Shown here in pieces: positions 1 to 13,923 of a stretch of DNA of 64,000 bases (its first letter is position 1; every line of letters starts with the position of its first letter). The stretch spans positions 1,568,001 through 1,632,000 of the forward strand of contig OY970393.1 in assembly GCA_963720465.1 (NCBI GenBank), read 5' to 3'. Below the pieces are notes generated by a model. It searched no databases, had not been told where the DNA came from, and worked only from the letters and a program-made list of their open reading frames with translations. Both the position numbers and the translations under genes were made by a program. The DNA is from Methanobacteriota archaeon (GTDB lineage: Archaea; Halobacteriota; Bog-38; Methanoflorentales; Methanoflorentaceae).

Positions 1-80
1 GACTGTTCGCTTTTCAGTTCGTCAGGCGCAGGCTCACCCGTCTTCGCGAAGTCTCGTTTCTTTCTATACTCGTCAAGCAA
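1..80 (-). CDS. NHEJ 3'-phosphoesterase (LigD PE domain, stand-alone), N-terminal part; runs off the window edge
   Basis: Not in the ORF track. Minus strand from TTG at 80 reads (M)LDEYRKKRDFAKTGEPAPDELKSEQ, matching the LxEYxxKRDFxxTxEP N-terminal signature of LigD PE modules. The start overlaps the ligase stop at 73-75. Confidence 0.85.
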   Translation of the reverse strand, partial: MLDEYRKKRDFAKTGEPAPDELKSEQ

Positions 81-948
81 CGCTTTGCACCTGATCTATC
101 GTGCACTCTTCGGCAGGCTTATCGTCCCGCATCCGTACGAAAACTGGCCCCCGCAGGCGGTGGTCTTTCGTGTACTGCAGGTACCTCACTTCGCACACCT
201 TATCGGGGACAACGTGCTGCACGTTCTTTGGAAGGGCGACGTTGCTGCCTGCGCGAACGAGCTCCGTCGCAAGGTCACCAAGGAGTGACTCGCTAAAGCC
301 CGTTCCGACCTGACCGACGTACGTGAGGCTGCCTGCGTCATATAACCCGAGGGCCAGCGACGCTATTGTCCTAGTCTTCGTTACGTACCCGACGATAACG
401 CAATCCACGGTCTTCTCATCCTTGATTTTGAGCCAGGCGTGCGACCGTCCGGTAACATAAAGGCTTTCCTTTTTCTTGGCCATGACGCCTTCCAGGTGAC
501 GTGCTGTTACGACGTCCCAGAGTCGCTCACCGTCGGCAGTGCCCGGTATTGTCTGCAAGTTTCTCCCTTCTTCGACGACGCCCGCAAGGGTTCGTTTTCT
601 CGTTGACAGCGGCAGCGTTTTTAGGTTCCTGCCTTCCAGTTCGAGTATGTCAAACGCGACGTACGTAGGCGGCCGATCGTGGTGCTTCCGTCGTTGCAGC
701 AGCGAGAACGACGGGTTCCCTTTCTCATCGTAGATCACGATCTCCCCATCGAGCACGCAATCGGCCTTGATTAGATCGCCAAACCCAAGCTCGGGAAACT
801 CACGGGTGATGTCCCGGTTGTTTCGTGATGTGAAGCAAAGCGTTCCTGCCTTTTTTTCGCAGAGCGCCCTGTAGCCATCCAGCTTAGGCTCAAAGATATA
901 CTCAGTGGACTTAAGAATCGCTTTTGTGCCCGTGGCGGCGAGCATCAT
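73..948 (-). CDS. ligD: ATP-dependent DNA ligase, LigD-type ligase domain (stand-alone NHEJ ligase)
   Basis: Motif I FEPKLDGYR, LDGEIV, YVAFDIL, EGVMAK, WLKIK, and an OB-fold with GQVGTGF ... LRGPVFVRMRDDK. ATGA overlap with the Ku stop. Confidence 0.93.
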   Translation of the reverse strand: MMLAATGTKAILKSTEYIFEPKLDGYRALCEKKAGTLCFTSRNNRDITREFPELGFGDLIKADCVLDGEIVIYDEKGNPSFSLLQRRKHHDRPPTYVAFDILELEGRNLKTLPLSTRKRTLAGVVEEGRNLQTIPGTADGERLWDVVTARHLEGVMAKKKESLYVTGRSHAWLKIKDEKTVDCVIVGYVTKTRTIASLALGLYDAGSLTYVGQVGTGFSESLLGDLATELVRAGSNVALPKNVQHVVPDKVCEVRYLQYTKDHRLRGPVFVRMRDDKPAEECTIDQVQSVA

Positions 949-1709
949 TTCAGGCTTGCCTTCAGTGCTTCAACGAGGTTCTCTTCTGTGGTGCGGCTGT
1001 ATTCCGTCTTGTGGATCGCAATCGTTTCCCCGCGTGCTTTTCTTTCGACGAGCTCCTTGAGGTCCTCCTCGAACGTATCGTGAAATTTGGTAATGTCAAA
1101 CTCATCGACCGTAATCTGGCTCAATAACTGTCTTGCGAGGTCCATCTCGACCTCAGAGAGTTGCGGCGGCTCATCAAGGCCATCGACCTGCATTATGTTC
1201 CGTATCTCATAATCATAATTCAGCGTTGTCAGAAGCAGGCCCTGCCTGTACGCTTCGATCGCACAGGCGTGTTCCTTTTCCCGCATGACAAATTTGCCGA
1301 TCGCGGTTTTGGCGGTCTGGTGGAGCACATTCCTGAATAGGAAATATGTCTTGTCCTTTGGTCGTTCTGGGCCCGCGTAGTAATGGGAGTTGAAAAAAAT
1401 CGGGTCGATTTGATGGGAATGAACGAACTCCACGATCTCTATCCAGGTGGATTTTTCGGGCCTGATGGAGTGAAGCTCTTCATCAGTAATGACCACGTAT
1501 TTATCTGGGGAAACTTCGATCCCCCTCACGATCTCGTCCTGTGACACCTCTTGCGTGCACGCGTCGCACCATTTCTTGTATCGTATCGGTGAGAGCTTGT
1601 CCTTGTGCAAGAGCCGTATTTTGAGTGGCCTCTGTTCGACCGCTGAGTAGAGTTTTACGGGAATGTTCACCAGTCCAAACGCTATTGATCCTTTCCACAG
1701 TGATTTCAT
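945..1709 (-). CDS. ku: Ku end-binding protein (prokaryotic NHEJ)
   Basis: MKSLWKGSIAFGLVNIPVKLYSA N-terminal signature, IDPIFF, D..F.DT..EDL and NLVEALKASL end. No basic C-terminal tail. Confidence 0.96.
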   Translation of the reverse strand: MKSLWKGSIAFGLVNIPVKLYSAVEQRPLKIRLLHKDKLSPIRYKKWCDACTQEVSQDEIVRGIEVSPDKYVVITDEELHSIRPEKSTWIEIVEFVHSHQIDPIFFNSHYYAGPERPKDKTYFLFRNVLHQTAKTAIGKFVMREKEHACAIEAYRQGLLLTTLNYDYEIRNIMQVDGLDEPPQLSEVEMDLARQLLSQITVDEFDITKFHDTFEEDLKELVERKARGETIAIHKTEYSRTTEENLVEALKASLK

Positions 1710-1972
1710 TTTGATGCACCGATTTTCAACGATAAGCGAATCTGCTTGTCATCTTTTAAGTAACGCTCGCCTTTCTGAGCGGACGTGCATGCTAACCGCT
1801 CGAGATGCTTATAGCATCGTTTATGTCACGATCAAATGGACCCCGCTTGTTAGTCTTTTCTCTTTCACACAAGTGGGCTGACCGACTGCCATCGAGGCCC
1901 TGCTGTCGCTCCGGCGCGATCTTCGTAAGCTTTTTCAAACTGCGAGGCGTTAAGTGCTGTAGGTGCGCTACT

Positions 1973-2104
1973 ATGCCAACCCCTCTTGACGTCACAGGGA
2001 CGATAACACAGAAGATGGCCCTGATTATCGGTGTTGTCGTCATCGCCGGGCTCGTGCTGGCATTCACGCCACTCAGGGTGGGGGGTACTCCCTGTTGGCC
2101 ATAG
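1973..2104 (+). CDS. Putative small single-pass membrane protein (43 aa)
   Basis: AGGTG SD-like site at 1961 before the ATG at 1973; MPTPLDVTGTITQKMALIIGVVVIAGLVLAFTPLRVGGTPCWP has one clear TM helix. Confidence 0.5.
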   Translation: MPTPLDVTGTITQKMALIIGVVVIAGLVLAFTPLRVGGTPCWP

Positions 2105-2299
2105 GCGCCGCCCTTTACGTTTTTGCGAGCGTCCGCACCTTGGTACAGCACCTCAGGTAACGTCACAGGTCGAGTTTTTCGAAAGACATTTCACAGGCTC
2201 TCCCGCTTACACTATTTTCAGCGGCTTAAAAACCTTAGTCGTGAGGTGCTCCTCGGTGGCCTCTGCCATTTTGCAATGCCTCAATAACAGCTTGCAATG

Positions 2300-2740
2300 C
2301 TACCCCCCATGTGTTAAGGCAAACAAGATCCCAGCGTAGACAAACGTTAGTGTCAAGATGGAGCCATAAAAAATGAGCAACGCTTTTGAAAGCATTAACT
2401 TGCTCGGTCTTGGCACTTCTATGCCCGCTTCGTACCGAGCAGCTCTCATATCAAAAAACTCGTCGCCTGTGTTGAGCTTATTTTCGACAATCTCTTTGTA
2501 CAGTGCCCTATACATCTCTTTTTGCCGCAGAAAATAGGCGTCTAGATACCAAAAAACGAGCAAAGCGAAGACGGCGATAAGCGCTTGATATCGCGTGCTG
2601 CTCAGCACCAGAATTATGCCGAGCACGGCCACGGTCCATCCCTTGATAATGACTGAATTAGTGGCTGTACGCTTTGTGATATTTTGAATAGTTGCGAGCA
2701 CTTCTAGTTCGTATGAGGAAAAACCCCCCTCGTGCTGCAT
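2300..2740 (-). CDS. Uncharacterised membrane protein (about 3 TM)
   Basis: 146 aa with hydrophobic helices and conserved-looking motifs IQ..KR...NS..IKGW and FWYLDAYFLRQ...YRALY; AT-richer than its neighbours. Confidence 0.75.
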   Translation of the reverse strand: MQHEGGFSSYELEVLATIQNITKRTATNSVIIKGWTVAVLGIILVLSSTRYQALIAVFALLVFWYLDAYFLRQKEMYRALYKEIVENKLNTGDEFFDMRAARYEAGIEVPRPSKLMLSKALLIFYGSILTLTFVYAGILFALTHGG

Positions 2741-3149
2741 CTGATATCACGTTTCCAATCCACTAGATGGCGTAATACGTAAAACGGGATCGTTAAAAGT
2801 TAAGTGTTTCTATATATTTGCGTCAAAAATGCGCAAGTACTTTCAGCTTGAATCAACTGCAACGAAAGAGCGAATTTCTGATTCTCAAATATGTAGCGAG
2901 AGACCCAAAAAAGCCGCTTAGCGTGGGCTATGCCAGCGCAAAAATATCAGCCCCCATGATTTTTCTTACGAAAACGGAAGACAGGGCGCTTACAATTTCG
3001 GAGATCGAATAGCGATTGCAGCGCGCGCAAGAAAACTATGCATAAACGACGGTGCACTCCACGCACAACCGCGTCTCACTGATAAGATACACGCCCGGAG
3101 CTCCAAACAAGGCCCACATATAATATGACTGTACTGTGTCAGTTTAGTC

Positions 3150-3560
3150 CAAGCGAAGGGGGCGGTAGGTGCTGGATGGAAATGATTTGGAGAGGGCGTA
3201 GGCGCCGTTCGGGGTGGTGATCGTGTTCGAGGTGCCAGAGGTGAGGGACCCTTCTTGTCGTCGGGGGTGTGGAGGTGAACCGTGGCGCTAGCGAGGGAAT
3301 AAGGTTTGGGTCTTCTTGACGTGGTTAAGAAGGTGGTCGATTGGCGAGCCGTGGGGGTGGCGCTGGAGGTCGACGAGTGAGGGCGGGGGTCTGCGCGGCA
3401 ACACTTGTTGCACACCTTTATGCTGATATTGGTATTGGCGGAGGATTTAGAAGAGGCGTGTCGTTCGAAGTGTGCCTGTTGACCAAGTAGTGGTGCCATC
3501 ATCCGCGTGGTAGTAACTTTGACGAGCTTGAGCTGTCGCGCTGCTGCTATGGCGACAGAT
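3150..3560 (-). pseudogene. Decayed remnant of the Ig-like repeat module
   Basis: Around 3310-3367 the sequence aligns loosely with 4180-4236 of the neighbouring gene (aaggtggtcgattggcgagccgtgggggtgg vs aaggtgaccgactggccgacggtgggggtgg). The peptide SSATPTARQSTTF resembles SDSTPTVGQSVTF. Boundaries are approximate. Confidence 0.45.
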
Positions 3561-3675
3561 GGGGACGCCGTACGGTGCATTCAGCTGAACGTGTAGAAAC
3601 CGACTGCTGCAAGATTTTCGGAGGCTTTAGCTGCGAAGACGGTGACCCCCACGCTCGTTCGCTGGTATTTCGACG

Positions 3676-4560
3676 CTACACGCTTATCTTAACGACTGCG
3701 CTCGTCGATGCTTGATAGGAGCTGTTGCCGGCGAAAGTAGCGTAGTAGGTGCGCTCCCCTGCGGTGCTCCAACTTGTCGTGAGACTGATCTGGCCGTTTT
3801 TGTCGGTGGTCTTGGTGGTGTCGTTGTAGCGCACGTCGTTGAGGTAGTGGTAGATCGTAACGTTCTTTCCTGAGAGGAGCGTTGTGCCGCTCGTCAGAGT
3901 GGCTGTGAAGTTGACCGATTGGCCGACGGCGGGGGTGGAGTTAGACGCGGTGAGGGTGATCTTCGTCGCTCCCACGTTGATGAAGACGGCGCTACTCGTC
4001 GATGACTGATATGAGCCATCACCGAAGAAGACAGCGTAGTAGGTGCGCGTGCCGGAGGAGGCCCAGCTCGTGGTGAGGGTGATCTGGCCGGCGGAATTGG
4101 TGGTCTTGGTGGTGTCGCTGTAGCGCGCGTCGTTGAGGTAGTGGTAGATGGTGACGGACTGGGAGAGCGCTTTTGTGCCATTCTTCAAGGTGGCGGTGAA
4201 GGTGACCGACTGGCCGACGGTGGGGGTGGAGTCGGACGCGGTGAGGGTGACCTGAGTCTGGCCCTTGACGGTGACGGTGACGACGCTACTCGTCGATGCT
4301 TGATGTGAGCTGTCACCCGTGAAAGTAGCGTAGTAGGTGCGTGTGCCGATGGAGGCCCAGCTCGTGGTGAGGGTGATCTGGCCGGCGGAATTGGTGGTCT
4401 TGGTGGCGTCATTGTAGCGGACGCCGTTGAGGTAGTGGTAGATGCTAACTGATTTGGACGACAGGGGCGTTGTGCCACTCTTGAGCGTGGCAGTGAAGGT
4501 GGCTGATTGGCCGACGGCGGGAGTCGGGTTGTTGACAGAGAGCGATAGTTGGGTGAGCTC
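3676..4560 (-). repeat. Three tandem ~294-bp coding repeats (Ig-like domains)
   Basis: 56 bp are identical at 4057-4112 and 4351-4406 (period 294); a third, more diverged copy lies at about 3680-3970. Confidence 0.9.
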
Positions 4561-5064
4561 TCCCTCAAGATTGCTTATTGTAGACCTCAGCAGCGTGGCG
4601 TTCGTCGGATACACAGAGGAACTGGCCACATTGCCTGCTGGGCTGATCACGTAGAGGGTCGGCGTGCTCGCGACTTGGTACGCCGAACCCGCGCTGACCC
4701 CATCTCCGACGGGCCATGTTACCCCTGTCTCCTCGACATATTGCTGAATGGCCGATGCCGCGCTACCATCGACTTCGACGCCTAGGAACTGAACCTTCGC
4801 GTCGTTCTTGTAATATGTGTTGTACAGAGGTACAAGGGTATCCTTAGCGTCACTTTGACAATATCCACAATCCGCTCCAAAGAATTGAATGACGACGACT
4901 TTTCCTCGATATTCGCTTAGCGTCTGGGTGTGTCCGGAAAGATCGGTGAACGAAAAATTTGGGGCCGACTGCCCGTTCGAGAGAAGTGCAAGTGCCGGTG
5001 CTGCTGTAGCCGCGATCAGCAACGCGGTGATCGCGATCAATAGAACTATTCGCTTTGTTGCCAT
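3676..5064 (-). CDS. Secreted TlpA/redoxin-family thiol-disulfide oxidoreductase fused to three Ig-like repeats
   Basis: Signal peptide MATKRIVLLIAITALL (ATG 5064), APNFSFTDLSG, CGYC active site, TPTLYVI, then three ~98-aa repeats with TPxVGQSVTFTATL ... IYHYLNxxRYxD ... RTYYATFxG. Confidence 0.88.
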   Translation of the reverse strand: MATKRIVLLIAITALLIAATAAPALALLSNGQSAPNFSFTDLSGHTQTLSEYRGKVVVIQFFGADCGYCQSDAKDTLVPLYNTYYKNDAKVQFLGVEVDGSAASAIQQYVEETGVTWPVGDGVSAGSAYQVASTPTLYVISPAGNVASSSVYPTNATLLRSTISNLEGELTQLSLSVNNPTPAVGQSATFTATLKSGTTPLSSKSVSIYHYLNGVRYNDATKTTNSAGQITLTTSWASIGTRTYYATFTGDSSHQASTSSVVTVTVKGQTQVTLTASDSTPTVGQSVTFTATLKNGTKALSQSVTIYHYLNDARYSDTTKTTNSAGQITLTTSWASSGTRTYYAVFFGDGSYQSSTSSAVFINVGATKITLTASNSTPAVGQSVNFTATLTSGTTLLSGKNVTIYHYLNDVRYNDTTKTTDKNGQISLTTSWSTAGERTYYATFAGNSSYQASTSAVVKISV

Positions 5065-5228
5065 GTTGTCTGTCTCCGAGTAAATACGCACGAGCCAAAA
5101 CCCGTGTCGAATAAAAAAAGAGCAGACTTAATAAGTGTTGCGATCCGCGCGAAAGCGTGCTCTCGTCAGAATCGCAACCGATTCTACGCAAAAAGGCTTA
5201 CCCGTGACGTCCGGTGCAACGACGCCGC

Positions 5229-6194
5229 TCAGCGCGTGGGCTGGCTGGGAGGCAGCTGCGAGGACGGCGCCTTCTCAAGCGTGGTCCGACCGCTAAGTCG
5301 TTGATTTCCCCGTACGAGGTCTACGTCTACGACGTCGCCGACGTCGTGCGCGTCCATTACCTTTATCAGGTCTCTTACGTCATCGATGTCAATGGCCCCC
5401 AGCCGAACGATAATATCCCCAGGCTGAATCCCCGAGAGGGCCGCCTGGCTGTTGCGCATCACAGCGGTCACCAACACGCCACGTTCGACGGAGAGCTTAT
5501 AATATGCCACGATTTTCGGATTAAGATCGACGCCGCTTATGCCGATCCACGGACGCACGATTTCTCCGCGTTCTATGAGCTGTCTGGCAATCCACATCGC
5601 CGGCTCTATCGCAATGGCAAACCCGATGCCTTGCGCAAACTGTATGACGGCCGTATTCATGCCTATTACCTTCCCCGCGCTGTTTGCCAAGGGCCCACCG
5701 CTGTTACCAGGGTTAATCGCGGCGTCGGTTTGTATGAGCTGCTCCATGAATGAGACCTGAGTTTGAATAGACCGGTTGACCGCACTGACGATTCCCACGG
5801 TGACCGTCGGCCCGCCGACGAGACCGAATGGCGTGCCCATCGCAATGGCCGTTTGCCCGATCTTGACCTCCGCGCTCTTTGCCATCTCAGGCACTGGCAG
5901 ATCGTGGTAATCGACGTGGATGAGAGCGATGTCCGTCTTCGTGTCGATGCCGCGCACTTGCGCGCGAGAGGTTCGTCCATCTTGCAGCGTCACTTGTATT
6001 TCTTGGGAGCCCAGCACCACGTGGGAGTTTGTCATGATATAGCCGTCCTCACCGATGATAATACCTGATCCGACTCCTTGAACGGGATGCACCTGTAAAT
6101 AAGCGTCCTGAATAAGCTTTACGTCACTCACGTTGGCCACGCTCGGCATGACTTTCTCGACCGCGGCGACAATCGTATCATCGTAACTTGCTAT
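5229..6194 (-). CDS. htrA: HtrA/DegP-like trypsin serine protease with one PDZ domain, no signal peptide
   Basis: GSGII, TNSHVV, DIAL, QTDAAINPGNSGGPL, PDZ RPWIGI. The first ATG is 6149, but the frame stays open and HtrA-like (IVAAVEKVMPSV) up to an ATA at 6194, 4 nt after GAGGTGA. Confidence 0.92.
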   Translation of the reverse strand: MASYDDTIVAAVEKVMPSVANVSDVKLIQDAYLQVHPVQGVGSGIIIGEDGYIMTNSHVVLGSQEIQVTLQDGRTSRAQVRGIDTKTDIALIHVDYHDLPVPEMAKSAEVKIGQTAIAMGTPFGLVGGPTVTVGIVSAVNRSIQTQVSFMEQLIQTDAAINPGNSGGPLANSAGKVIGMNTAVIQFAQGIGFAIAIEPAMWIARQLIERGEIVRPWIGISGVDLNPKIVAYYKLSVERGVLVTAVMRNSQAALSGIQPGDIIVRLGAIDIDDVRDLIKVMDAHDVGDVVDVDLVRGNQRLSGRTTLEKAPSSQLPPSQPTR

Positions 6195-6998
6195 GGTATC
6201 ACCTCGTGCACAGCAGTGATGTTCTTGCAGGGTGTTAGCCGTTTCCCACCTTTTCTACCACTTCGATCGTCGAATGATCGTGTTACACAGGACTGATCAT
6301 TGGCTGAGAGAGCTGTACCGCTTTCATCTCCGACGTGCACGCCGTAGACTCTTGCGGCTTCCTAGCGCGCTATTTTTTGATACGGAAACGCAGTTTTTTG
6401 GTGGCCGACGAGGCGAGTTACCGGGTCTCGCGTGTCGAAATGGAAGTCTCGCAGAGCCCTGACTGTCTGCTGAGGGTTGACGATACGCAACGGAGCGAAA
6501 TGGACCCGTTCGCTTAACGTTAGGTGCCAAACTGTCTCGTGCCCGAAGCAGAAATCCTGTGGCTATCAATCAAAAAAGACGATCGTCTATAAGGCGCTTC
6601 GTCAATTCTATTGCGCCATGCTGTGCGTTGCGTTCGTTAAGCATTCTGCTCGCGTCGTCTTCGCGCAATGAAAGCGAAGGCCACAGAGAGAAGATTGAGC
6701 CCAGTAATGATCCAGGTTCGTGCTTCTCGTGTTCGCAGCCATAGGTTCACCTCCGATTCAAACTGCGCGGATACTCATAAGTCTGCGTTAAGCGAACATT
6801 GTGTGCGAAAACGCGACACTTCCATCGTGTTAGATGTTCGTTTTGCTTGATCAGCGGCTTGCAACGTGCAGGCGCTTCATAATGGATCTACGATTTTACA
6901 TGATTGCACCGAAATCGATACGCAACTATAACAACTGCATGCGTATAATAAACCAGCAAAAACGAAACGGTTAAGGCGGGAAACTGCAATTAGTACAC

Positions 6999-7092
6999 GG
7001 AGCGGTTCCGGTTTATACGCGACCAGGTGCCGCTCCAACTACGATCACTTTGCTCTTCGTCTCTATCGTTGCGCAGCGGTCTCCCTACTTTT
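6999..7092 (+). ncRNA. Candidate small structured RNA
   Basis: BRE/TATA-like CGAAACGGTTAAG at 6963-6975; a long hairpin GGAGCGG...CCGCTCC (6999-7036) starting about 25 nt downstream; a second stem ACGAT/ATCGT; a T-run at 7088-7092; no convincing ORF. Confidence 0.35.
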
Positions 7093-7374
7093 GAAAAATC
7101 AGACGGATCATGCATCGCTAAATGATATTCGCGCTCGAAAGCACTTTGAACTCATTGAGCACGTACGAACAGCCGCTGGCGATTGCGACAGACGGGAGTA
7201 CACTTGTCGTATCTCACTAAGTGTTTTCACTTGCGCTGATTCACGCGTTTCTTTGGAGGCTACGATAGATCGACGAAGTGTTGTGACAGCCCCCATTACC
7301 TACTCACTCGACTGTTCTGACTGCGGTGTGAGTGATAGCGGTCACACGACCGCCCTAAGACTCACCGGGTCGTA

Positions 7375-9210
7375 TCACGAGACTGTGATTTTTAGCGGGG
7401 TACTTGAGGCGGCGACGTATTTCGAGGTGCCACTGTAGGTGGTCTTGAAGTAGTAAGTGCCCGACGGGAGAGATCCAGAGAACGCATAGACTCCGTTAGC
7501 GGTGGTGACGGAAGGGCTGCTCGAAGCGAGATAATACGTGCCACCTGAAGCCGATGACCAGTAGAGATAGACGTCGCCGCCTGCCACAGGAACTGGAATC
7601 GATTCTTTAGTTTTTAGGGTGCCAGAGATGATGACAGATTGGCCGACGCCAGGGCTGGACGGAGTGGCAGTTATGGAGAGCTGTGTGGCTAGTTTAGCAG
7701 ATGAGGACGTGACGGTAACCTTAACAACACTGCTGTAGGATGCGAGATAATCGCTAGTGGCGTTGTGGTAGAGGCGGAAGTAATAAGTCCCCGTGCTTCC
7801 AATAGCGCCTGCGAAGGAGCAGCCTCCGTTGACCGTGTTTGCGGCCAAGGCAGACCCGAGCTCCCACGTTTTTTGATCCGTTGATGCCTGCAACCAGACT
7901 GGCTCGCCCGAAAGCGGCGTCTTTGTTGCCGTCGTATAAAGCTGTCCGTAGAATAGTAGTGGTTGGTTGACGGTAGGGGTAGTATTGCTAACGGATATAT
8001 AAAGAACGGTTGACTGCGCACCGGTGCAGTTGATTGTTATTGTGCTGCTGACGCTTCCTAGGTACGTAACATTCCCAGCATAAACGCTGCGGAAGTAGTA
8101 GAGGCCTTGGCCGGTGACAGAGCCATAGAAGAGGTAATACCCATTCGTGGAGCCGTTCGTGCCGTTCCCAGTGGTGGTGGGCTGCGAAGAAGCGGAAGAC
8201 CAGGTCTTAGTATCCAGAGAGTATTGAAGATTAACGGGTGCATTGGGAATGCCGCCACCGGTGCCATTTGTAAGTGTGCCGTAGAGTGTAAACCGTTGGC
8301 CAGACGCAACCTTGCCAGAGACAGCAGAGCTACTTATAGAGAGTTGAGTGCCTATTCTGTTGCGCACGGTGACGGTGATGGGTGTCGAGTTGCTCGCGCT
8401 GTAACTCGCAAAACCGGTAAAGGAGGCTTCGTACTTATACGTCCCGGCTGTGGACTCTGAATAAGTGAGGGTAAAGTTGCCGCCCGCATCGGTGGTATTC
8501 GTCACGCCGGTGGAAACGTATGCGGCGCCGTTCCATCGGTCCAGATGAATGGTTTGATATGGGATTCCTGCGCCAGAGCTGTTCGTAAGGTTTCCCGTGA
8601 TATTGAACGGTTCAGTCGTATTGACCGTCGGTTTATCTACAGAGGCGGTGATCTGCGTGCTGTTCTGCGTCGCTCCGACGTTGATGGTGACGACTCTGCT
8701 TGTCGATGTTAGATAGGTGCTGTTCCCTGCAAACGTCGCGTAATAAGAACGTGTGCCATTAGAGCCAAAGCTCTCTGGGAAGTTGAACGTTGTGTACTTA
8801 GTGGTGTCGTTGTAGCGGATGCCGTTGAGATAATGATAGATGGTGACGGGCCCCGAGATGGGCGTGGCGCCGCTTATCAGGGTGGCGGTGAAGGTGACCG
8901 ATTGGCCGACGGCAGGCGCGGAATTGGTAACAGAGAGAGTGGTCTCCGTCGTGGCTGCCCCGACAGTGGTCACTTTCTGTGTGCTGCTTGCTGAGGAGGT
9001 GGCGTTCGCGCTCGGAGATGCGCTCGGCGTGGCACTGCCTGTTGTGGCATTTCCATTCAACGTGCTATTAGTCGCGTTCGTCGCAACAGCGCTATTCAAT
9101 GTGCCATTCGTAGTCGCGCTCGTCGCAAGAGTAATCGTTGCACACCCGGCAAAAAAGACGGTGATGAGGAGCAGGGCGACAAGTGGCGAAATGAGTTTAA
9201 CCGCTTTCAT
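7375..9210 (-). CDS. Surface lipoprotein with multiple Ig-like domains
   Basis: GAGGT SD before ATG 9210; lipobox FFAGC; S/T/N-rich linker with many NxS/T sequons; about five Ig-like beta domains, the first carrying the same IYHYLNGIRYND motif as the redoxin fusion. Confidence 0.85.
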   Translation of the reverse strand: MKAVKLISPLVALLLITVFFAGCATITLATSATTNGTLNSAVATNATNSTLNGNATTGSATPSASPSANATSSASSTQKVTTVGAATTETTLSVTNSAPAVGQSVTFTATLISGATPISGPVTIYHYLNGIRYNDTTKYTTFNFPESFGSNGTRSYYATFAGNSTYLTSTSRVVTINVGATQNSTQITASVDKPTVNTTEPFNITGNLTNSSGAGIPYQTIHLDRWNGAAYVSTGVTNTTDAGGNFTLTYSESTAGTYKYEASFTGFASYSASNSTPITVTVRNRIGTQLSISSSAVSGKVASGQRFTLYGTLTNGTGGGIPNAPVNLQYSLDTKTWSSASSQPTTTGNGTNGSTNGYYLFYGSVTGQGLYYFRSVYAGNVTYLGSVSSTITINCTGAQSTVLYISVSNTTPTVNQPLLFYGQLYTTATKTPLSGEPVWLQASTDQKTWELGSALAANTVNGGCSFAGAIGSTGTYYFRLYHNATSDYLASYSSVVKVTVTSSSAKLATQLSITATPSSPGVGQSVIISGTLKTKESIPVPVAGGDVYLYWSSASGGTYYLASSSPSVTTANGVYAFSGSLPSGTYYFKTTYSGTSKYVAASSTPLKITVS

Positions 9211-9558
9211 GATGTACCTCGCAAACAGCTCGTTTATGGTCAACACCAGGTAGAGTGTTATAAGGATTTCGATTTTATCATGAGGCTTTATTAGCTAAGC
9301 CGTCGTGGCTCTCGATGTGTTGGAGCGGTCTAGCTTTACTGAGCGCATAATAATGGGGACGGAGCCGACGCGTCTTTGGATTATTTGACGTTGCGCACTA
9401 CGCGCGGCATGCGCTCAAACGTCTTCAAGCGTCTTGAGCTTATTACTTTCACAACTTCCTCGCGAAAAACCCAACTTCAAGCAAAACCGAGGAGATCGCG
9501 ATGTTGCTGTGCCTTTCGTGTAAGCATTTCTATCAGCTCTGCCCGGTGCCCGAAAAAA

Positions 9559-9579
9559 TGGAGCCCAAGCGGAGATTTG
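9559..9579 (-). mobile_element. Isolated tRNA 3' fragment (probably Thr): att-like integration scar
   Basis: Minus strand CAAAT-CTCCG-CTTGGGC-T-CCA followed by TTTTTT, i.e. T-loop end, T-stem, acceptor strand, U73 and CCA. No 5' half upstream. Confidence 0.65.
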
Positions 9580-9742
9580 CCAGACACGCGTCCTATCGTC
9601 CCGAGGGGTGTGCGCAGTTTGAACCGGTTGAGTTCAAAAGAGAGCGAAGAGGATGATCTAGATAAATTGCCGCTTCGCGATCAGTATGAGGGTGCCTCGC
9701 GCCTCAGGCCCTTCTCAGTAGAACCAATCTCACGCAAACACT

Positions 9743-11497
9743 TCATCCCTTACCCGCCCAGCTCCGAGCAATCGCCACATCGACATCGAGCGGGACGTTA
9801 CGTAGAAACTCAGCTCCAGCCGCCCTCATGTGGTAGGCGACGGTCTCAGCTACCGCAGCAGCGCGTACCTGTTGCGCTTCGACCACCAACTCATCGTGCA
9901 CACAGCAGACGATTTTTGCCCTCGTAGAACTCAATGCTTCGTGGAGAGAGGTCAACGCGCGTTTCATAATATCCGCAGCAGTTCCCTGTACCCGCGTGTT
10001 CAACAGTTCGGTCAGCTTTGGTTCTTGGCCGTCCTCCCACCTGCGTATTCTTCCGCTCAAGGTCCGGATAGAGACCAAAGGTGTGGTGCTCACGCTGCGG
10101 TGGAACGCCCGCACGCCTGAGTACGCATCAAAGAAACGCCGGCGAAACTCGATCGCATCCTCAAGGGTAAAGTGCACCCCATAGATGTAATTCGCATATC
10201 GTCGTAAGCTCCGTGCACCCATTCCGTAGATGAGGCCGATGTTCAGCACCTTTGCAATAAGGCGCTCGTCCTTCGTCACCTGGTCAAGGGGCGTATCGAG
10301 CACGAGCGACGCGGTCAACCGATGCAAGTCCTCCCCCCGTTGGAACGCCCGCGTCATGGTCTCATCACCGCTGATGTCAGCGACGACCCGCAGCTCAAAT
10401 TGCGCGTAGTCGGCGATCACGAGGCGATGGTCGCGTGCCGCTACAAAACACTCCCGCACCGTACCGTCTCGTGGAATCTGCTGCAGGTTGGGATTGCGGC
10501 ACGCGAATCTCCCGTTCACCGTGCCGACCTGAAGAAAGGTGGGGTGTATCCTCCCCGTCAACGGATGGACGTGCTTAGGGAGTGCATCCAAAAAGCCGTT
10601 TTTAAGCTTTAAGACGTGCTTGTAGCGAATGTAGCGGGGTATTGCGGGATGTAGCTCCTCATACTTCAGCAACTCGCTCTCTCGTACGTTGCGGACGGGA
10701 ACGCCTGCGCTTCTGAAGGCGTGCTTCACCTGCTGGGGGCTACCGAGATTGATGGCGGCGACGTCACCGAGGGTACGCTGTCCCGACGTCGTCAGCTCAC
10801 GACACACCTCGTACGCGAGGTCCCCCTCCAACTCGTTATAGGTGTCCTGCAACGTTCGCCATTGTCCCATATCCATGAGCATGCCGTTGCGCTCCATCGC
10901 CGCAACCGCGGGGAGGCAGTTACATTCTAAGCGCATGCAGTCCGTGAGGCCTGCGCTCTCGATATGCTCCGATAACGCCGCATGGAGGCTCAAGACCACG
11001 CCGACAGTTTGCCCCGCACATTGAAGGTGTCGCTCGGTGAGGGTACCAGCTCGAAAACTGCCGCCCGTTTCCGGCATGTACTCGTCAAGATACGCCCTTG
11101 CCACGGTTTTCAGATCGTGTTTTACCTCCAGCCCGCCCTTAAGCAGTTGCGAGGCAAGCATCGTATCGAAATAGGGGCTTGAGAGGTCGAATCCTGCCTG
11201 ATAGAGGAACTTGAGGGCTAGTTTCCCATTATGCATTACCTTGACGGCCGGTGTCGTAAAGAGGTCGTGCAGCTTCGCCAATCCCCTCTGGGGCACCTGA
11301 GCACAATCAATAACGGCCGGAGGATGGCCGTGTACGACCAATTGAAGCGTTCGTATCCGATCAACAAAGGTGTCGGAACCCGTGGTTCCGAGAGCTAACG
11401 CTATGACCGACGAAGGTGCGATACGCTCAATGATGGCAGTAAGATGTTCTTCAGTGGCGATATATTCGTATTGCGGCGAAACGCTTCGCTGGGTCAT
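9743..11497 (-). CDS. polA: Family A DNA polymerase lacking the 5' nuclease, with a degenerate 3'-5' exonuclease domain
   Basis: GRIHPTFLQ, PNLQQIP, motif A IADYAQFELR, motif B RLIAKVLNIGLIYG, QGTAADIMK, motif C VHDELV. Likely ATG at 11497 (ORF open to 11665). Confidence 0.93.
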   Translation of the reverse strand: MTQRSVSPQYEYIATEEHLTAIIERIAPSSVIALALGTTGSDTFVDRIRTLQLVVHGHPPAVIDCAQVPQRGLAKLHDLFTTPAVKVMHNGKLALKFLYQAGFDLSSPYFDTMLASQLLKGGLEVKHDLKTVARAYLDEYMPETGGSFRAGTLTERHLQCAGQTVGVVLSLHAALSEHIESAGLTDCMRLECNCLPAVAAMERNGMLMDMGQWRTLQDTYNELEGDLAYEVCRELTTSGQRTLGDVAAINLGSPQQVKHAFRSAGVPVRNVRESELLKYEELHPAIPRYIRYKHVLKLKNGFLDALPKHVHPLTGRIHPTFLQVGTVNGRFACRNPNLQQIPRDGTVRECFVAARDHRLVIADYAQFELRVVADISGDETMTRAFQRGEDLHRLTASLVLDTPLDQVTKDERLIAKVLNIGLIYGMGARSLRRYANYIYGVHFTLEDAIEFRRRFFDAYSGVRAFHRSVSTTPLVSIRTLSGRIRRWEDGQEPKLTELLNTRVQGTAADIMKRALTSLHEALSSTRAKIVCCVHDELVVEAQQVRAAAVAETVAYHMRAAGAEFLRNVPLDVDVAIARSWAGKG

Positions 11498-11875
11498 CTC
11501 TGTCTCCGCACGTTCAATACGTGTGTGAATACGCCCTTCGAGCCCCACCGTTGCGCGTACTGCCTTGCTATTTTGGACAAATCTCGCGTGTATCTTCGAA
11601 CGAAAACGGTGGGGTAAACGAGAGGGTATTGAGTCTCTTTCTCTAAAACTGTATGTTTTGTCCAAAAGAAGGATGAAAGTATTTGTCGCTAAAAGCGAGT
11701 CTTAGAACAGCGACGAGAACCGCGACGAAAGATTACCTCAGAATCAAATTATAGCGCATTGCAACCCGACTAGTCCAAGCTTAGATAGCCCCCCATAACG
11801 GGGCGCGAAATCTGAGGTATTAAGCTGCACTAGTAATATAGTGTGATCAACAGTAAAAAATAGAGGCGATGAAAA

Positions 11876-12061
11876 ATGCTAGATAAAACAATTTCTGAGC
11901 ACTTTGTCAACAAAACGATAGAAGTGTACTTCGGCGGCCGGCCGAATGAAACCCTGACTGGCAAGGTAGTCGGAAGTGCCGACGGGGTGATCATCATCGA
12001 GCATGACAACCGCCGGGATATTATCAACGCTGAGCGAGTGGTCGCTTTTTGGGAAAAATAG
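11876..12061 (+). CDS. Small MM0924-like (Sm/LSm-like fold) protein, copy 1
   Basis: 61 aa, GAGG SD, T-rich tract downstream; 50/61 aa identical to 61563-61748, with many synonymous changes, which supports coding. Confidence 0.85.
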   Translation: MLDKTISEHFVNKTIEVYFGGRPNETLTGKVVGSADGVIIIEHDNRRDIINAERVVAFWEK

Positions 12062-12629
12062 ACGCAACTGACTCAGCCAATGTCCTCCCCTTCTTTTTGC
12101 TTTCTTTAATTCTGTACCCGTTTACGGGAGATTGCATGAATCGAGGGTTTAGAGTCGAGTGTGCTGCCTAAGAGCCACGTACGCCTTTATAGGAAGTAGC
12201 TCTCTCCCCCCCTCGCGAACTTTCTTGATCAAGTAAATTTGATGATTATCAAAAAAACTTAACTTGATAAAGGATGAAGTGCATGATGCCCATGGGGCGT
12301 TGGAGCTGGATTAGACAGGGACATGTGAGACAGTTTCATACCTGCGAAAAGATTGACGCGGCTGATGTCGGAGCTAAGATGGGTGCGGATCCATTAACTC
12401 CTTCCGATGGTCACACTGCTTGAGGCCGCGTCCCAGTCTTTTCGACGATGCACGCCTCTTCACCTCGGGAGATGCGTGCCTCTTCCCTGTTACCAGCTCC
12501 TCTCGAGTCCCTCAGAACGGCTTTGGCCGTCACTGTGCTTGAACAAGTTTTACGATCGGCTGTGAATGATTTGGGGGACCAATACGAACACAACGCAAAG
12601 ATACGAATCTGTGCAGCGATCTGCGCCAG

Positions 12630-12743
12630 CTCATCAGCCATCTTTAAAAGGAGAAGATAGATACGTTGTACAACGTAATCGCCGTAGCTCACGCCATTAT
12701 CGCGAAGAACGTCGCAGCAACTCCGAAGCTTCTGAACCGTATC
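12630..12743 (-). pseudogene. hsdM: N-terminal fragment of type I restriction-modification methyltransferase HsdM
   Basis: DTVQKLRSCCDVLRDNGVSYGDYVVQRIYLLLLKMADE resembles the EcoKI-family HsdM N-terminus (VxKLWxxCDxLRDxGVSY..Y...L..LLFLKM). No start codon and no MTase motifs follow. Confidence 0.75.
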
Positions 12744-12888
12744 TGGACCTCGATGATAATCTGAGTGGCATGGGTTCCCCCATACGACGATTCACGTGTT
12801 TTTTGAGAGATAAAGGCGCGAAGCAGCGTTGCAGATCTGCAACGGGCATTCAGTTCCGTGCTAGTCGCTGCATGAAACTTGTTCCACA

Positions 12889-13923
12889 TCACTTATCGTG
12901 CTTGTGCGGGACTAAGTCGCCATAGTCGTGTCCACTCACGTAGTGATGCTCTTCGCCTGATGCATTGAGCGGATCGACGTGTATCACGGCGTTTGAGAGA
13001 TAGGTAAGGTGATGCAGGAGCTGATGGCGGACCTCTTTCGCAATGACGTGCCCTGCTTCAACTGATAACTCACGATCTGCGGCAATATTTACCTCAGCGT
13101 GGAGGCGGTGACCAATCCACCGGACGCGCACCTCCGTAACATCCTTCACGCCTTCTGTGTGCACAGCGGCATCCCGAATCTCGTCGGGAATGGCAGGATC
13201 GATGCCGTCGATAGCCCGGGTAAACACCTCGTTGCCTGAACTCCACACAATACGCAGGATGGCCACCGTTATGATAAGTCCGATGAGTGGATCGGCAAGC
13301 GGGAAGCCGAGGTACACGCCCACGGCTCCGAAGAACACGGCCAGGCTTGTCAGCCCATCGATGCGGGCGTGATGGCCATCGGCGACGAGCGCAGCGCTTC
13401 CGATCTCCTTGCCAACGTTGATGCGAAAGACCGCAACGATCTCGTTGCCTGCAAACCCGATCAATGACGCGGCCACCACCGCCCACAGAAACTGCACTAC
13501 CTGCGGGTGGAAGAGGCGGTTAATTGACTCGTAGCCTGCCAGAATAGCGCTAAAAAGAATGATGAGCACAATGGCGATGCCTGCCAGATCCTCCACCCGT
13601 CCGTATCCGTAGGTGAAACGCTTCGTCGGCTTCCACGTGCTCATGCGAAAGGCGAGCCAGAGCGGGACGGCCGTCAAGGCGTCGCCCACGTTGTGGATGG
13701 TGTCGGCCAGCAGCGCAACGCTTCCCGAGTAGTAGACGATAACGGCTTGCAGGATGGCGGTCGCCATCAGTCCTACCAACGACCACTTGAGCGCCCAGAT
13801 CCCTCGTTTCGAGGTAAGGATGGACGGGTCAATCACGCCGTGCGTGTGGCCGTGTGAATGCTCGTGTGAAGGCGAATGCGTATCAGCACTCCGATGCGGG
13901 CGCTTAAGAGTCACCATTGACAC
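12889..13923 (-). CDS. Cation diffusion facilitator (CDF) metal transporter
   Basis: His-rich N-terminus, SVALLADTIHNVGD, FTYGYGRVEDLAG, LVADGHHARID, and a C-terminal dimerisation domain ending IHVDP. Confidence 0.95.
   Translation of the reverse strand: MSMVTLKRPHRSADTHSPSHEHSHGHTHGVIDPSILTSKRGIWALKWSLVGLMATAILQAVIVYYSGSVALLADTIHNVGDALTAVPLWLAFRMSTWKPTKRFTYGYGRVEDLAGIAIVLIILFSAILAGYESINRLFHPQVVQFLWAVVAASLIGFAGNEIVAVFRINVGKEIGSAALVADGHHARIDGLTSLAVFFGAVGVYLGFPLADPLIGLIITVAILRIVWSSGNEVFTRAIDGIDPAIPDEIRDAAVHTEGVKDVTEVRVRWIGHRLHAEVNIAADRELSVEAGHVIAKEVRHQLLHHLTYLSNAVIHVDPLNASGEEHHYVSGHDYGDLVPHKHDK

What the first reader, a model, noticed from the sequence alone, without database searches (positions are those of the whole stretch)
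9743..11497. Archaeal family-A polymerase with dead proofreading near an NHEJ operon: possible Pol-theta-like repair or mutator enzyme
Seen: no 5' nuclease domain. ExoI reads IALALGTTG (normally DxE, as in ALDTETTG), ExoII reads HNGKLALKFL (normally HNAKFD) and ExoIII reads LQCAGQT (normally YAAxD). All metal ligands are lost, while the ORF and the polymerase Asp residues of motifs A and C are intact. Known: family-A polymerases are atypical in archaea, and eukaryotic Pol theta and Pol nu are family-A enzymes with inactivated exonuclease, with Pol theta acting in end joining. Inference: a specialised low-fidelity repair polymerase that might work with the Ku/Lig/PE genes 8 kb away. The link rests on proximity only.
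Basis: partly seen in the sequence, partly recalled or inferred. Interest (0 to 1): 0.8.

Follow-up and report, generated by a model that had tools for sequence, protein, structure and literature searches.

The report
Proofreading-dead bacterial-type DNA polymerase in methanogens
A methane-producing archaeon carries a bacterial-type DNA polymerase whose error-correcting site is destroyed but whose copying site is intact, and it is most likely an error-prone repair enzyme whose tie to the nearby end-joining genes is not proven.

Summary
Window 9743-11497 (-) encodes a 584-aa family-A polymerase with no 5' nuclease domain. All five exonuclease residues are replaced (D35A, E37G, D94A, Y160C, D164T), while motifs A, B and C keep their catalytic residues.

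It is not a decaying copy. Every archaeal homologue of 57% identity or more lacks the three exonuclease aspartates. dN/dS is 0.24 for the exo domain and 0.11 for the pol domain. The AlphaFold model is confident.

The gene belongs to the apicoplast/Aquificae-like ("Hot Spring 1") PolA subfamily. In 401 genomes sampled from the phylum, close copies occur only in one methanogen family (18 of 23 relatives).

The whole clade carries Phe at the E. coli Pol I Ile709 position, a substitution described as a mutator, and Ile at the motif-B Phe position. No Y-family polymerase was found in 24 genomes of the family.

The NHEJ link is only partly supported. PolA lies 1.4-8.2 kb upstream of Ku-Lig-PE/Pol in 11 of 15 genomes of this genus. 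It is never adjacent to Ku. In the sister genus it instead follows a DnaB-like gene with a dead P-loop, 1.35 Mb from Ku. The NHEJ operon has its own polymerase.

Best reading: a domesticated low-fidelity repair polymerase.

The parts
9743..11497 (-). PolA gene: 584-aa family-A DNA polymerase with a vestigial 3'-5' exonuclease domain plus a polymerase domain and no 5' nuclease domain
   Evidence: Translation. Pfam PF00476 at 5.8e-79 and PF01612 at 1e-10. Best solved relative is the apicoplast polymerase at 9.7e-82. AlphaFold2 model with pLDDT 90 and pTM 0.88. Foldseek TM 0.93 to the apicoplast polymerase.
10898..11497 (-). Vestigial exonuclease domain (residues 1-200): folded but without catalytic residues
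   Evidence: Block pLDDT is 92-96 over residues 11-140. dN/dS median is 0.243 over 55 pairs. Catalytic columns were read.
11378..11401 (-). ExoI remnant ALALGTTG (Asp to A35, Glu to G37)
11207..11233 (-). ExoII remnant HNGKLALKF (Asp to A94)
11006..11026 (-). ExoIII remnant LQCAGQT (Tyr to C160, Asp to T164)
9755..10789 (-). Polymerase domain (residues 237-581)
   Evidence: Pfam PF00476 stretch. dN/dS median is 0.113.
10388..10414 (-). Motif A ADYAQFELR: catalytic D363 and steric-gate E368 kept; F367 replaces the Ile of DYSQIELR (E. coli Pol I Ile709 position)
   Evidence: Phe at this column occurs with the motif-A Glu kept only in the 12 archaeal rows of 169; 2 other rows read D-F-Q.
10223..10264 (-). 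Motif B RLIAKVLNIGLIYG: R412, K416 and Y424 kept; I420 replaces the Phe of NFG (position B3)
   Evidence: Ile at this column occurs only in the 12 archaeal rows of 169.
9878..9901 (-). Motif C VHDELVVE (H534, D535, E536 kept)
945..1709 (-). Ku, first gene of the NHEJ operon, 8,033 bases downstream of PolA on the same strand (context; functional link unproven)
   Evidence: Pfam PF02735 at 1.5e-40. Linkage in the genus.
73..948 (-). ATP-dependent DNA ligase (LigD-type) overlapping the end of Ku. The operon continues left of the window with a fused PE + primase-polymerase gene.
   Evidence: Pfam PF01068 and PF04679. TIGR02778 and PF13298 matches at G000:C1:1566854-1567987.
1792..9246 (-). Variable spacer between PolA and Ku. 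Here it holds six same-strand ORFs: an Ig-like surface protein, an HtrA-type protease, a thioredoxin-Ig protein and three small ORFs. It differs in content and length between genomes of the genus.
   Evidence: Pfam. Comparison of 8 relatives' loci.

Best explanation
The gene encodes a working DNA-templated DNA polymerase that cannot proofread. It was domesticated by one family of methanogenic archaea and most likely serves as a low-fidelity repair or damage-tolerance polymerase, doing gap filling and possibly lesion bypass.

Origin. The ancestor of the family probably acquired it from bacteria or a mobile element as part of a primase-helicase + PolA replication module of the apicoplast/Aquificae-like PolA subfamily. 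In the archaea the primase domain is gone, the helicase P-loop is dead and the exonuclease site is dead. Only the polymerase site has stayed intact.

Mechanism.
- Shown: the Klenow-like fold, the metal ligands D363 and D535/E536, and the O-helix residues R412, K416 and Y424 are all present.
- Shown: the four exonuclease carboxylates and the Tyr are absent throughout the clade.
- Shown: both domains are under purifying selection.
- Inferred: misincorporations cannot be excised.
- Inferred: Phe367, at the position of E. coli Pol I Ile709, loosens base selection.
- Inferred: Ile420 at motif-B position B3 may change sugar discrimination.
- Inferred: the exonuclease domain survives as a scaffold.
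- Inferred: the enzyme fills the error-prone niche in a lineage in which no Y-family polymerase was found.
For: (1) Family and fold. Pfam, NCBIfam and PDB matches. AF2 model pLDDT 90. Foldseek TM 0.93 to the apicoplast polymerase and 0.86 to Aquifex Pol I.

(2) The dead exonuclease is a clade trait. Among the 30 archaeal-type proteins of 57% identity or more (query plus 29 hits), the ExoI Asp is absent in 26 of 26 that cover it, the ExoII Asp in 27 of 27 and the ExoIII Asp in 28 of 28. Among the 91 more distant hits only 1 (P0098) is dead.

(3) Selection. Over 55 pairs of 11 genus genomes, median dN/dS is 0.243 (range 0.161-0.361) for the exo domain and 0.113 (0.078-0.217) for the pol domain. 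None of the 13 orthologues extracted has an internal stop.

(4) Distribution. The close clade occurs in 18 of 23 relatives of the family. The 5 misses are 59-86% complete. No close copy was found in the other 377 genomes sampled from the phylum, of which 11 hold PolAs of only 31-40% identity.

(5) Fidelity positions. Motif A reads DYAQFELR and motif B reads NIGLIYG in 29 of 29 archaeal proteins that cover them, and in 0 of 91 others. PMC7708058 passages state that Ile709 substitutions make E. coli Pol I an efficient mutator, that I709F does not impair synthesis, and that exonuclease plus polymerase-domain changes raised mutation about 400-fold.

(6) No Y-family polymerase (PF00817) in 0 of 24 genomes of the family, against 7 of 17 other genomes of the phylum.

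(7) Origin. The archaeal clade is monophyletic (100) and nested among bacterial-type members. In the sister genus PolA overlaps by 4 bp a DnaB-like gene. The same helicase-then-PolA order occurs in 3 metagenome loci, with an AEP primase, an intact GxGKT motif, and an integrase in one locus and a VapE-like gene in another.

(8) Weak hint of expression. Contigs from 4 metatranscriptome runs of 4 studies cover the gene, for example 9745-11718 with 89 differing letters. The tool warns that DNA can be present in such libraries.
Against: - No biochemistry exists for any member of this clade.
- Replacing the B3 Phe with Ile is unprecedented in my sample of 169 and could cripple nucleotide binding rather than tune it.
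- The lack of a Y-family polymerase is shared by 10 of 17 other genomes of the phylum that also lack this PolA, so the complementary pattern is weak and rests on one lineage.
- The copy in one closed genome of the sister genus (G022) is split between two frames. This may be assembly error or decay.
- The persistent position upstream of Ku in this genus would fit a more specific end-joining role than the general one stated here.
- The I709F data come from E. coli Pol I, seen only as passages of a citing paper, and need not transfer to this enzyme.
Confidence: 0.6

Rival explanations
1. An end-joining polymerase. In this genus the enzyme has been recruited to the Ku-Lig-PE/Pol system as a second polymerase for fill-in or microhomology-primed synthesis at breaks, functionally like Pol theta.
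For: - PolA lies upstream of Ku on the same strand, 1.4-8.2 kb away, in 11 of 15 genus genomes that hold it. In the other 4 it sits on a contig of 3.9 kb or less, at a contig end, or is only a fragment.
- The linkage survives although the spacer differs in content. For example, G003 has only a methyltransferase gene there, while this window has six ORFs.
- Helicase-then-PolA order in bacterial-type loci suggests the position beside Ku is derived, that is, a relocation towards the NHEJ operon.
- Like Pol theta, the exonuclease is dead.
Against: - This is one genus, hence one event. Synteny among genomes with dS of 0.13-0.6 is expected anyway.
- PolA is never adjacent to Ku; at least one unrelated gene and 0.6 kb or more of spacer intervene.
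- In the sister genus PolA is 1.35 Mb from Ku (G018). One closed genome (G022) has PolA and no Ku match.
- Three other genomes of the phylum have Ku without this PolA.
- The operon already holds a LigD-type primase-polymerase and PE.
- There is no SF2 helicase domain and no large pol-domain insert, and no Pol theta chain is among the 48 fold matches listed, which run to rank 50.
Confidence: 0.2
2. A replication-type module. PolA still works with the DnaB-like partner protein, in the manner of T7 gp5/gp4 or the apicoplast PREX polyprotein, for strand-displacement synthesis, replication restart, or replication of an unseen extrachromosomal element.
For: - In the sister genus the two genes overlap by 4 bp, and the order YbjQ-helicase-PolA is shared by G018 and G022.
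- The same pair order occurs in 3 metagenome loci.
- The helicase-like gene is kept in 13 of 15 genus genomes searched, with no stops in the 10 aligned and a median dN/dS of 0.336 over 45 pairs.
Against: - The archaeal partner lacks the AEP primase domain.
- It has lost the Walker A lysine in both genera: 10 of 10 genus genomes aligned, and both sister-genus copies.
- In this genome the DnaB_C match is below Pfam's cut-off (17.9 bits against 27).
- In this genus the two genes are about 237 kb apart.
- No integrase was found among the flanking ORFs I scanned in the archaeal loci.
Confidence: 0.1
3. A relic of an old integration that is slowly decaying and has no host function.
For: - Three of the module's four activities (primase, helicase ATPase, exonuclease) are already lost.
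- The G022 copy is split between two frames.
- The archaeal stem branch is long, at 0.76-0.9 changes per site.
Against: - dN/dS is 0.11 in the pol domain.
- The polymerase motifs are invariant across two genera that are 63% identical overall.
- The gene is kept in 18 of 23 relatives, and all misses are in incomplete genomes.
Confidence: 0.05
4. The polymerase has a shifted substrate. It could act as a reverse transcriptase, incorporate ribonucleotides, or prime synthesis, in the way some relatives accept RNA templates or prime DNA.
For: - The B3 Phe that contacts the incoming sugar is replaced by Ile in the whole clade.
- Section 19 of PMC10201439 notes a viral relative, '3173 Pol', that accepts RNA templates.
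- The search listing of PMC7581432 describes a PolA-like protein of SCCmec acting in a primase-helicase pair (abstract start only).
Against: - The steric-gate Glu (E368) is kept.
- Nothing in the sequence shows a new template preference.
- The SCCmec enzyme belongs to another subfamily, according to PMC10201439 passages.
Confidence: 0.05

Closest known systems
Apicoplast PREX polymerase (apPOL) and Aquificae-type Pol I: 'Hot Spring 1', cluster #8 / cd08639 of Czernecki et al. 2023 (PMC10201439)
   Same: - Best sequence match: E 9.7e-82 over residues 33-583.
- Best fold match: TM 0.93 to apPOL and 0.86 to Aquifex pyrophilus Pol I.
- Same two-domain layout without a 5' nuclease.
- Nested in this group in both trees.
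- The paper already records archaeal (Methanomicrobia) members and links to primase and helicase partners (section 19).
   Different: - The exonuclease is intact in about 93% of that cluster according to the paper's table. Here all five residues are lost.
- The paper says Hot Spring PolAs conserve the B3 Phe. Here it is Ile.
- Motif A carries Phe instead of Ile.
- The partner helicase is a pseudo-enzyme and is unlinked in this genus.
APEX / PolA2 of Actinobacteria (PMC10201439; PMC12926913)
   Same: This is the closest analogy in function. It is a cellular accessory family-A polymerase with an inactivated exonuclease and an active polymerase. It is thought to act in mutagenic DNA repair, and its presence goes with fewer Y-family polymerases (passages).
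   Different: - It is a different subfamily, restricted to Actinobacteria, with Leu at B3 by homology statements in the paper and a beta-clamp motif in the exo remnant.
- I did not place APEX sequences in my trees.
- I looked only at one Q-rich stretch of this protein by eye and saw no PCNA-type motif. No systematic motif search was run.
Eukaryotic Pol theta / Pol nu
   Same: Family-A polymerases with a dead exonuclease remnant that are used in repair. Pol theta is used in microhomology-mediated end joining (table of PMC10201439).
   Different: - Pol theta is fused to an SF2 helicase, and there is none here.
- There are no large inserts: 551 query residues align to 548 of apPOL.
- Neither is among the 48 fold matches listed, which run to rank 50.
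- That Pol theta carries Tyr at B3 is recalled and comes from no call.
Toprim-primase-PolA fusion proteins with a dead exonuclease (unnamed metagenomic proteins such as P0123, P0146, P0163)
   Same: - They group with the archaeal clade in the full-length tree (23 rows, SH-aLRT 96).
- On polymerase-domain columns alone, the tree that holds them together is 9.1 log-likelihood units better than the free quick tree (p-AU 0.649).
- All have degenerate exonuclease columns.
   Different: - They are about 860-935 aa long, with an N-terminal zinc ribbon and Toprim primase. The archaeal proteins have no primase.
- They keep Ile in motif A and Phe at B3.
- The free pol-domain tree did not recover the grouping.

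Membership tests
Family A DNA polymerase (Pfam PF00476) | Motifs A, B and C with the catalytic Asp/Glu and the O-helix Arg, Lys and Tyr | tested here: met
   PF00476 at E 5.8e-79, 266 bits against a cut-off of 34.3. D363, E368, R412, K416, Y424, H534, D535 and E536 are present.
Hot Spring 1 / Aquificae-like / PREX PolA (cluster #8, cd08639) | Closest in sequence and fold to apicoplast and Aquificae polymerases, and nested among them in a tree | tested here: met
   The Pyrinomonadaceae-type ('Hot Spring 2') and canonical Pol I rows fall outside. No CDD search was available, so cd08639 itself was not scored.
Hot Spring 1 / Aquificae-like / PREX PolA (cluster #8, cd08639) | Two-domain layout (3'-5' exo + pol) without a 5'-3' nuclease | tested here: met
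Hot Spring 1 / Aquificae-like / PREX PolA (cluster #8, cd08639) | Functional DEDDy exonuclease site (about 93% of members according to the paper's table) | tested here: not met
   D35A, E37G, D94A, Y160C and D164T. This places it in the minority without the site.
Hot Spring 1 / Aquificae-like / PREX PolA (cluster #8, cd08639) | Phe at motif-B position B3 | tested here: not met
   Ile420 here. Ile occurs in 12 of 12 archaeal rows and 0 of 157 others. The paper's statement is in section 19.
NCBIfam NF011539 (PRK14975.1-3, bifunctional 3'-5' exonuclease/DNA polymerase) | Score at or above the curated cut-off of 640 bits | tested here: not met
   548.6 bits; it is the best NCBIfam hit but lies below the cut-off.
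Pol theta-like end-joining polymerase | N-terminal SF2 helicase-like domain fused to the polymerase | tested here: not met
   Only the exo1 and pol A domains are found in 584 aa.
Pol theta-like end-joining polymerase | Inactive exonuclease-like domain | tested here: met
Pol theta-like end-joining polymerase | Characteristic insertion loops in the polymerase domain | tested here: not met
   The sequence is collinear with apPOL (551 against 548 residues). No Pol theta or Pol nu chain is among the 48 fold matches listed, which run to rank 50. That the loops define Pol theta is recalled knowledge.
Pol theta-like end-joining polymerase | Microhomology-mediated end-joining activity | not testable with these tools
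   Needs biochemistry.
Archaeo-prokaryotic NHEJ system (Ku, LigD-type ligase, AEP polymerase, phosphoesterase) | The gene is one of the defined components, or is linked to them across independent lineages | tested here: not met
   All four defined components are present without PolA. Linkage holds in one genus only (11 of 15 genomes) and not in the sister genus.
APEX / PolA2 (actinobacterial exonuclease-dead PolA) | Phylogenetic membership in clusters #4/#14 | not tested
   No APEX sequence was in my trees. The best matches are to another subfamily. The likeness claimed is functional only.

The most novel reading that the evidence does not exclude
In this methanogen genus, a naturally mutator-type, proofreading-dead family-A polymerase has been moved next to Ku-Lig-PE/Pol. 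It acts there as a second, DNA-synthesising end-joining polymerase. That would be a prokaryotic counterpart of Pol-theta-mediated end joining, built from a domesticated mobile-element replicase whose helicase partner survives as an ATPase-dead scaffold.
Probability: 0.15. Interest if true: 0.8.

Novelty: new variant of a known kind. Interest (0 to 1): 0.5.

Why it matters
Archaea are usually described as lacking family-A polymerases. Where such enzymes were recently noted in archaea, they were taken to be proofreading enzymes of unknown role.

This case shows a whole archaeal family keeping one under selection with the proofreading site erased. It also carries, as its wild type, a substitution at the position where changes make E. 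coli Pol I a laboratory mutator. It offers three things:
- A natural experiment on how fidelity positions in motifs A and B co-vary.
- A candidate for the error-prone polymerase in methanogens of peat and freshwater sediment in which no Y-family enzyme was found.
- An example of a mobile-element replicase being stripped down to a single activity.

If the link to Ku proved functional, it would add a second polymerase to prokaryotic end joining.

Tried and rejected
- Complex prediction of PolA with residues 270-676 of the helicase-like protein of the same genome gave no verdict (score 0.00, mark 0.32). It is evidence neither for nor against binding.
- Rfam (gathering thresholds) found nothing in the 64-kb window. 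The promoter and terminator scan of 9000-13000 gave counts within the range of shuffled sequence.
- Close viral relatives were sought. The best of 80 viral loci kept (of 494 relatives) are 27-39% identical, less than bacterial-type proteins at 41-45%. P0123 found no viral relative. A recent viral origin is therefore not supported.
I could not name the organisms of the nearest exonuclease-dead proteins.
- I considered that PolA might replace a missing NHEJ polymerase. This is rejected, because the LigD-type primase-polymerase is present.
- I considered that exonuclease loss certainly predates the transfer into archaea. This was softened. The full-length tree groups the archaeal clade with exonuclease-dead fusions (SH-aLRT 96), but the free pol-domain tree places it elsewhere (support 94, not starred). 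The AU test does not reject the grouping, and the constrained tree is better by 9.1 lnL (two unfinished runs). For the pol-domain tree I dropped 3 long-branch rows (L204, L205, P0200) from the 70.
- Parts of the window without cover in the RNA-library contigs (for example 5138-8406) say nothing, because the relatives lack those genes.
- The 112-aa ORF that follows PolA in the sister genus has no match in this genome and no Pfam family.
- Synteny upstream of Ku is not shared between the two genera within the stretches fetched.
- Literature searches for an archaeal exonuclease-dead PolA tied to end joining found no such report.
Full report
**What is there.** Window 9743-11497 (minus strand) is an open frame of 584 codons inside a longer frame that could start at a TTG at 11665. 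Seven close homologues are exactly 584 aa, and in one relative the frame is open for only three codons upstream (587 aa). The ATG at 11497 is therefore the likely start. Pfam finds a family-A polymerase domain (E 5.8e-79) and a 3'-5' exonuclease domain (E 1e-10), and nothing else. The best NCBIfam model is PRK14975.1-3, "bifunctional 3'-5' exonuclease/DNA polymerase", at 548.6 bits, below its cut-off of 640. The best solved relatives are the Plasmodium apicoplast polymerase (E 9.7e-82) and Aquifex pyrophilus Pol I. An AlphaFold2 model built on 15 sequences has mean pLDDT 90 and pTM 0.88. It superposes on the apicoplast enzyme at TM 0.93.

**The exonuclease site.** The alignment to the apicoplast enzyme and a 169-row family alignment place A35 and G37 at the ExoI Asp and Glu, A94 at the ExoII Asp, and C160 and T164 at the ExoIII Tyr and Asp.

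**Not a lone decaying copy.** The word-indexed search returned 120 hits. With the query, 30 proteins form an archaeal-type group of 57-92% identity, some named by their sources as Euryarchaeota or Halobacteriota archaeon. In this group the ExoI Asp is absent in 26 of 26 proteins that cover it, the ExoII Asp in 27 of 27 and the ExoIII Asp in 28 of 28. Twelve keep the ExoI Glu and three keep the ExoIII Tyr, so decay is graded. Of the 91 more distant hits only one (P0098) is dead.

Codon alignments of 11 orthologues of the genus give median dN/dS of 0.243 (range 0.161-0.361) for residues 1-200 and 0.113 (0.078-0.217) for residues 201-584, over 55 pairs. The between-genus comparison gives 0.232 and 0.091. 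The exonuclease domain is predicted with block pLDDT of 92-96 over residues 11-140. So the domain is kept as a fold, under weaker constraint, without its chemistry.

**Who has it.** The genome is one contig of 2.31 Mb and carries McrA, Orc1/Cdc6, PolD and a family-B polymerase. Close PolA copies occur in 18 of 23 relatives of the same family: 14 of 17 in the genus and 4 of 6 in the sister genus. The five genomes without a match are 59-86% complete. In 401 genomes drawn across the phylum, the close clade is confined to this family. Eleven other genomes hold PolAs of only 31-40% identity. Of the six I aligned, four have intact exonuclease motifs and two (L204, L205) form a separate dead lineage. 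Runs holding near-identical DNA are labelled freshwater sediment, and more distant ones peat.

**Where it came from.** In a FastTree of 169 rows and an IQ-TREE (C20 mixture, quick search) of 70 rows, the archaeal clade is monophyletic (support 100). It sits on a long stem (0.76-0.9) and is nested among bacterial-type members of the apicoplast/Aquificae-like group. Canonical Pol I and the Pyrinomonadaceae type fall outside. This is cluster #8, "Hot Spring 1", of Czernecki et al. 2023. I read section 19 and further passages of that paper. It already notes archaeal Methanomicrobia members, about 93% of sequences with an exonuclease, a conserved B3 Phe, and fusions to primases and helicases.

In the full-length tree the archaeal clade falls in a 23-row group (SH-aLRT 96). 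The 13 non-archaeal members of that group all have degenerate exonuclease columns. Eight of the ten such proteins I scanned are 865-935 aa fusions with a zinc ribbon and/or a Toprim primase domain ahead of the dead exonuclease and PolA. On polymerase-domain columns alone, the free quick tree placed the archaeal clade elsewhere (support 94). The tree constrained to hold the two groups together was nevertheless 9.1 log-likelihood units better, with p-AU 0.649. I therefore regard exonuclease loss before the transfer as likely but not settled.

**The partner gene.** In the sister genus (closed genomes G018 and G022) PolA is preceded, with a 4-bp overlap, by a 671-aa gene with a DnaB_C domain (E 3.2e-12). 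The local order is YbjQ, helicase-like gene, PolA, a 112-aa ORF, then TrmB. Three metagenome loci show the same order, helicase then PolA, with 28-32% identity to the archaeal helicase-like protein over its length. In those loci PolA has an intact exonuclease and the helicase carries or follows an AEP primase domain and has a GxGKT Walker A motif. A phage-type integrase in one locus and a VapE-like gene in another lie nearby.

The archaeal proteins lack the primase domain and have lost the Walker A lysine in both genera. This holds for 10 of 10 genus genomes aligned and for both sister-genus copies. Yet the gene is found in 13 of 15 genus genomes searched, has no stops in the 10 aligned, and has a median dN/dS of 0.336. 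In this genome it lies beside the YbjQ homologue about 237 kb from PolA. The simplest history is acquisition of a primase-helicase + PolA module, followed by loss of all activities but the polymerase, followed by separation of the two genes in this genus.

**Fidelity positions.** All 29 archaeal-type proteins that cover them read DYAQFELR in motif A and NIGLIYG in motif B, and none of the 91 other hits does. In the 169-row alignment, Phe at this column together with the motif-A Glu, and Ile at B3, occur only in the 12 archaeal rows. The Phe stands at the position of E. coli Pol I Ile709. Passages of PMC7708058 make three statements, citing Shinkai and Loeb 2001, which I did not read. Substitutions there make an efficient mutator polymerase. 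I709F does not impair synthesis by Klenow fragment. Combined exonuclease and polymerase-domain changes raised mutation about 400-fold.

The wild-type state of this clade thus matches a laboratory mutator design. That the B3 residue contacts the sugar of the incoming nucleotide, and that the Ile/Phe exchange at the two positions might be compensatory, is my inference from recalled structural knowledge.

**The NHEJ neighbourhood.** Ku (945-1709) and a LigD-type ligase (73-948) are in the window. A 451-aa open frame with PE and primase-polymerase matches follows just left of it. The end-joining set is therefore complete without PolA. PolA lies 8,033 bases upstream on the same strand.

In the genus, 11 of 15 genomes with PolA have Ku on the same contig, same strand, downstream, 1.4-8.2 kb away. 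In the other four, PolA is on a contig of 3.9 kb or less, at a contig end, or only a fragment. The spacer varies. G003 has one methyltransferase gene there, several genomes have two small ORFs, and this window has surface-protein, protease and thioredoxin-like genes. PolA is never next to Ku.

In the sister genus PolA and Ku are 1.35 Mb apart in G018 and on different contigs in G019 and G021. G022, a closed genome, has PolA but no Ku match. Within the family, 17 genomes have both genes, 2 have only PolA, 2 have only Ku and 3 have neither. Three genomes outside the family have Ku without this PolA. Because both genes are traits of one lineage, co-occurrence says little. The conserved position in the genus counts as one event. 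The link is therefore more than proximity in one genome, but well short of a demonstrated functional association.

**Other context.** No Y-family polymerase domain was found in any of 24 genomes of the family, against 7 of 17 others. This fits a substitute error-prone polymerase, as proposed for actinobacterial PolA2/APEX (passages of PMC12926913). However, 10 of the 17 other genomes lack both, so the argument is weak. Contigs assembled from four metatranscriptome runs of four studies cover the gene at roughly 93-99% likeness, as they do Ku and the ligase. The tool warns that DNA may be present in such libraries, so this is only a hint of expression in relatives.

**Verdict.** The gene is a selected, proofreading-dead, probably error-prone polymerase. 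It is a member of the apicoplast/Aquificae-like subfamily rather than a Pol theta relative. Its tie to end joining is a genus-level linkage that still needs a test. I rate it a new variant of a known kind, with interest 0.5.

Noticed in passing
G000:C1:1340485-1342371 (outside the window; locus L027:6429-8459, minus strand): A 676-aa DnaB-like protein that is the partner of PolA in the sister genus. It has no primase domain and the Walker A lysine is lost in both genera, yet it is kept with dN/dS of about 0.34. It looks like a conserved pseudo-helicase.
   Followed up: yes
Just left of window base 1 (G000:C1:1566854-1567987); also G000:C1:849735-850037: The NHEJ operon continues with a single 451-aa open frame that joins a LigD phosphoesterase domain to a LigD primase-polymerase domain. 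A second stand-alone PE copy lies elsewhere in the genome.
   Followed up: partly
L204 (G302:C1) and L205 (G337:C8): A second, unrelated-looking exonuclease-dead PolA lineage in another archaeal family of the phylum. Its motif C reads HDS and B3 is Tyr, and it sits on a very long branch.
   Followed up: partly
L228:5076-7634 (metagenome contig): An exonuclease-dead PolA of 571 aa is followed directly, with no gap between the two frames, by a 280-aa gene with an RNase_H_2 (DnaQ-like) domain. Proofreading there may be supplied in trans. No such neighbour was seen in the archaeal loci.
   Followed up: partly
window 11876-12061 (+): A 61-aa ORF in the 1.2-kb gap between PolA and the cation-efflux gene. 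RNA-library contigs of three runs match 11889-12071 with 3 differing letters in two of them, and some then run on into unlike sequence. It was not scanned against any family library.
   Followed up: no
window 3676-5091 and 7375-9246 (-): Two Asn/Thr/Ser-rich surface proteins with Big_3_5 Ig-like repeats. RNA-library contigs show very high summed depth there, and joints between about 8715 and 4328, as expected for shared repeats.
   Followed up: no
G000:C1:2098812-2100148: The family-B polymerase match is split over two open frames of 595 and 232 aa. This could be a split gene, an intein or intron, or a frameshift. It was not examined.
   Followed up: no
G022:C1:2596543-2598265 (L028); G005:C107 and G008:C11: In G022 both PolA and the helicase-like gene are broken between frames. 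The Ku matches of G005 and G008 each hold one stop codon. These may be assembly errors or real decay.
   Followed up: no
G007:C9:8996-10513 and G322:C76:15410-16933: Open frames of 1538 and 1589 aa in archaeal assemblies with a PolA part only 31-32% identical to this one. They are possibly PREX-like fusions of viral or mobile origin.
   Followed up: no
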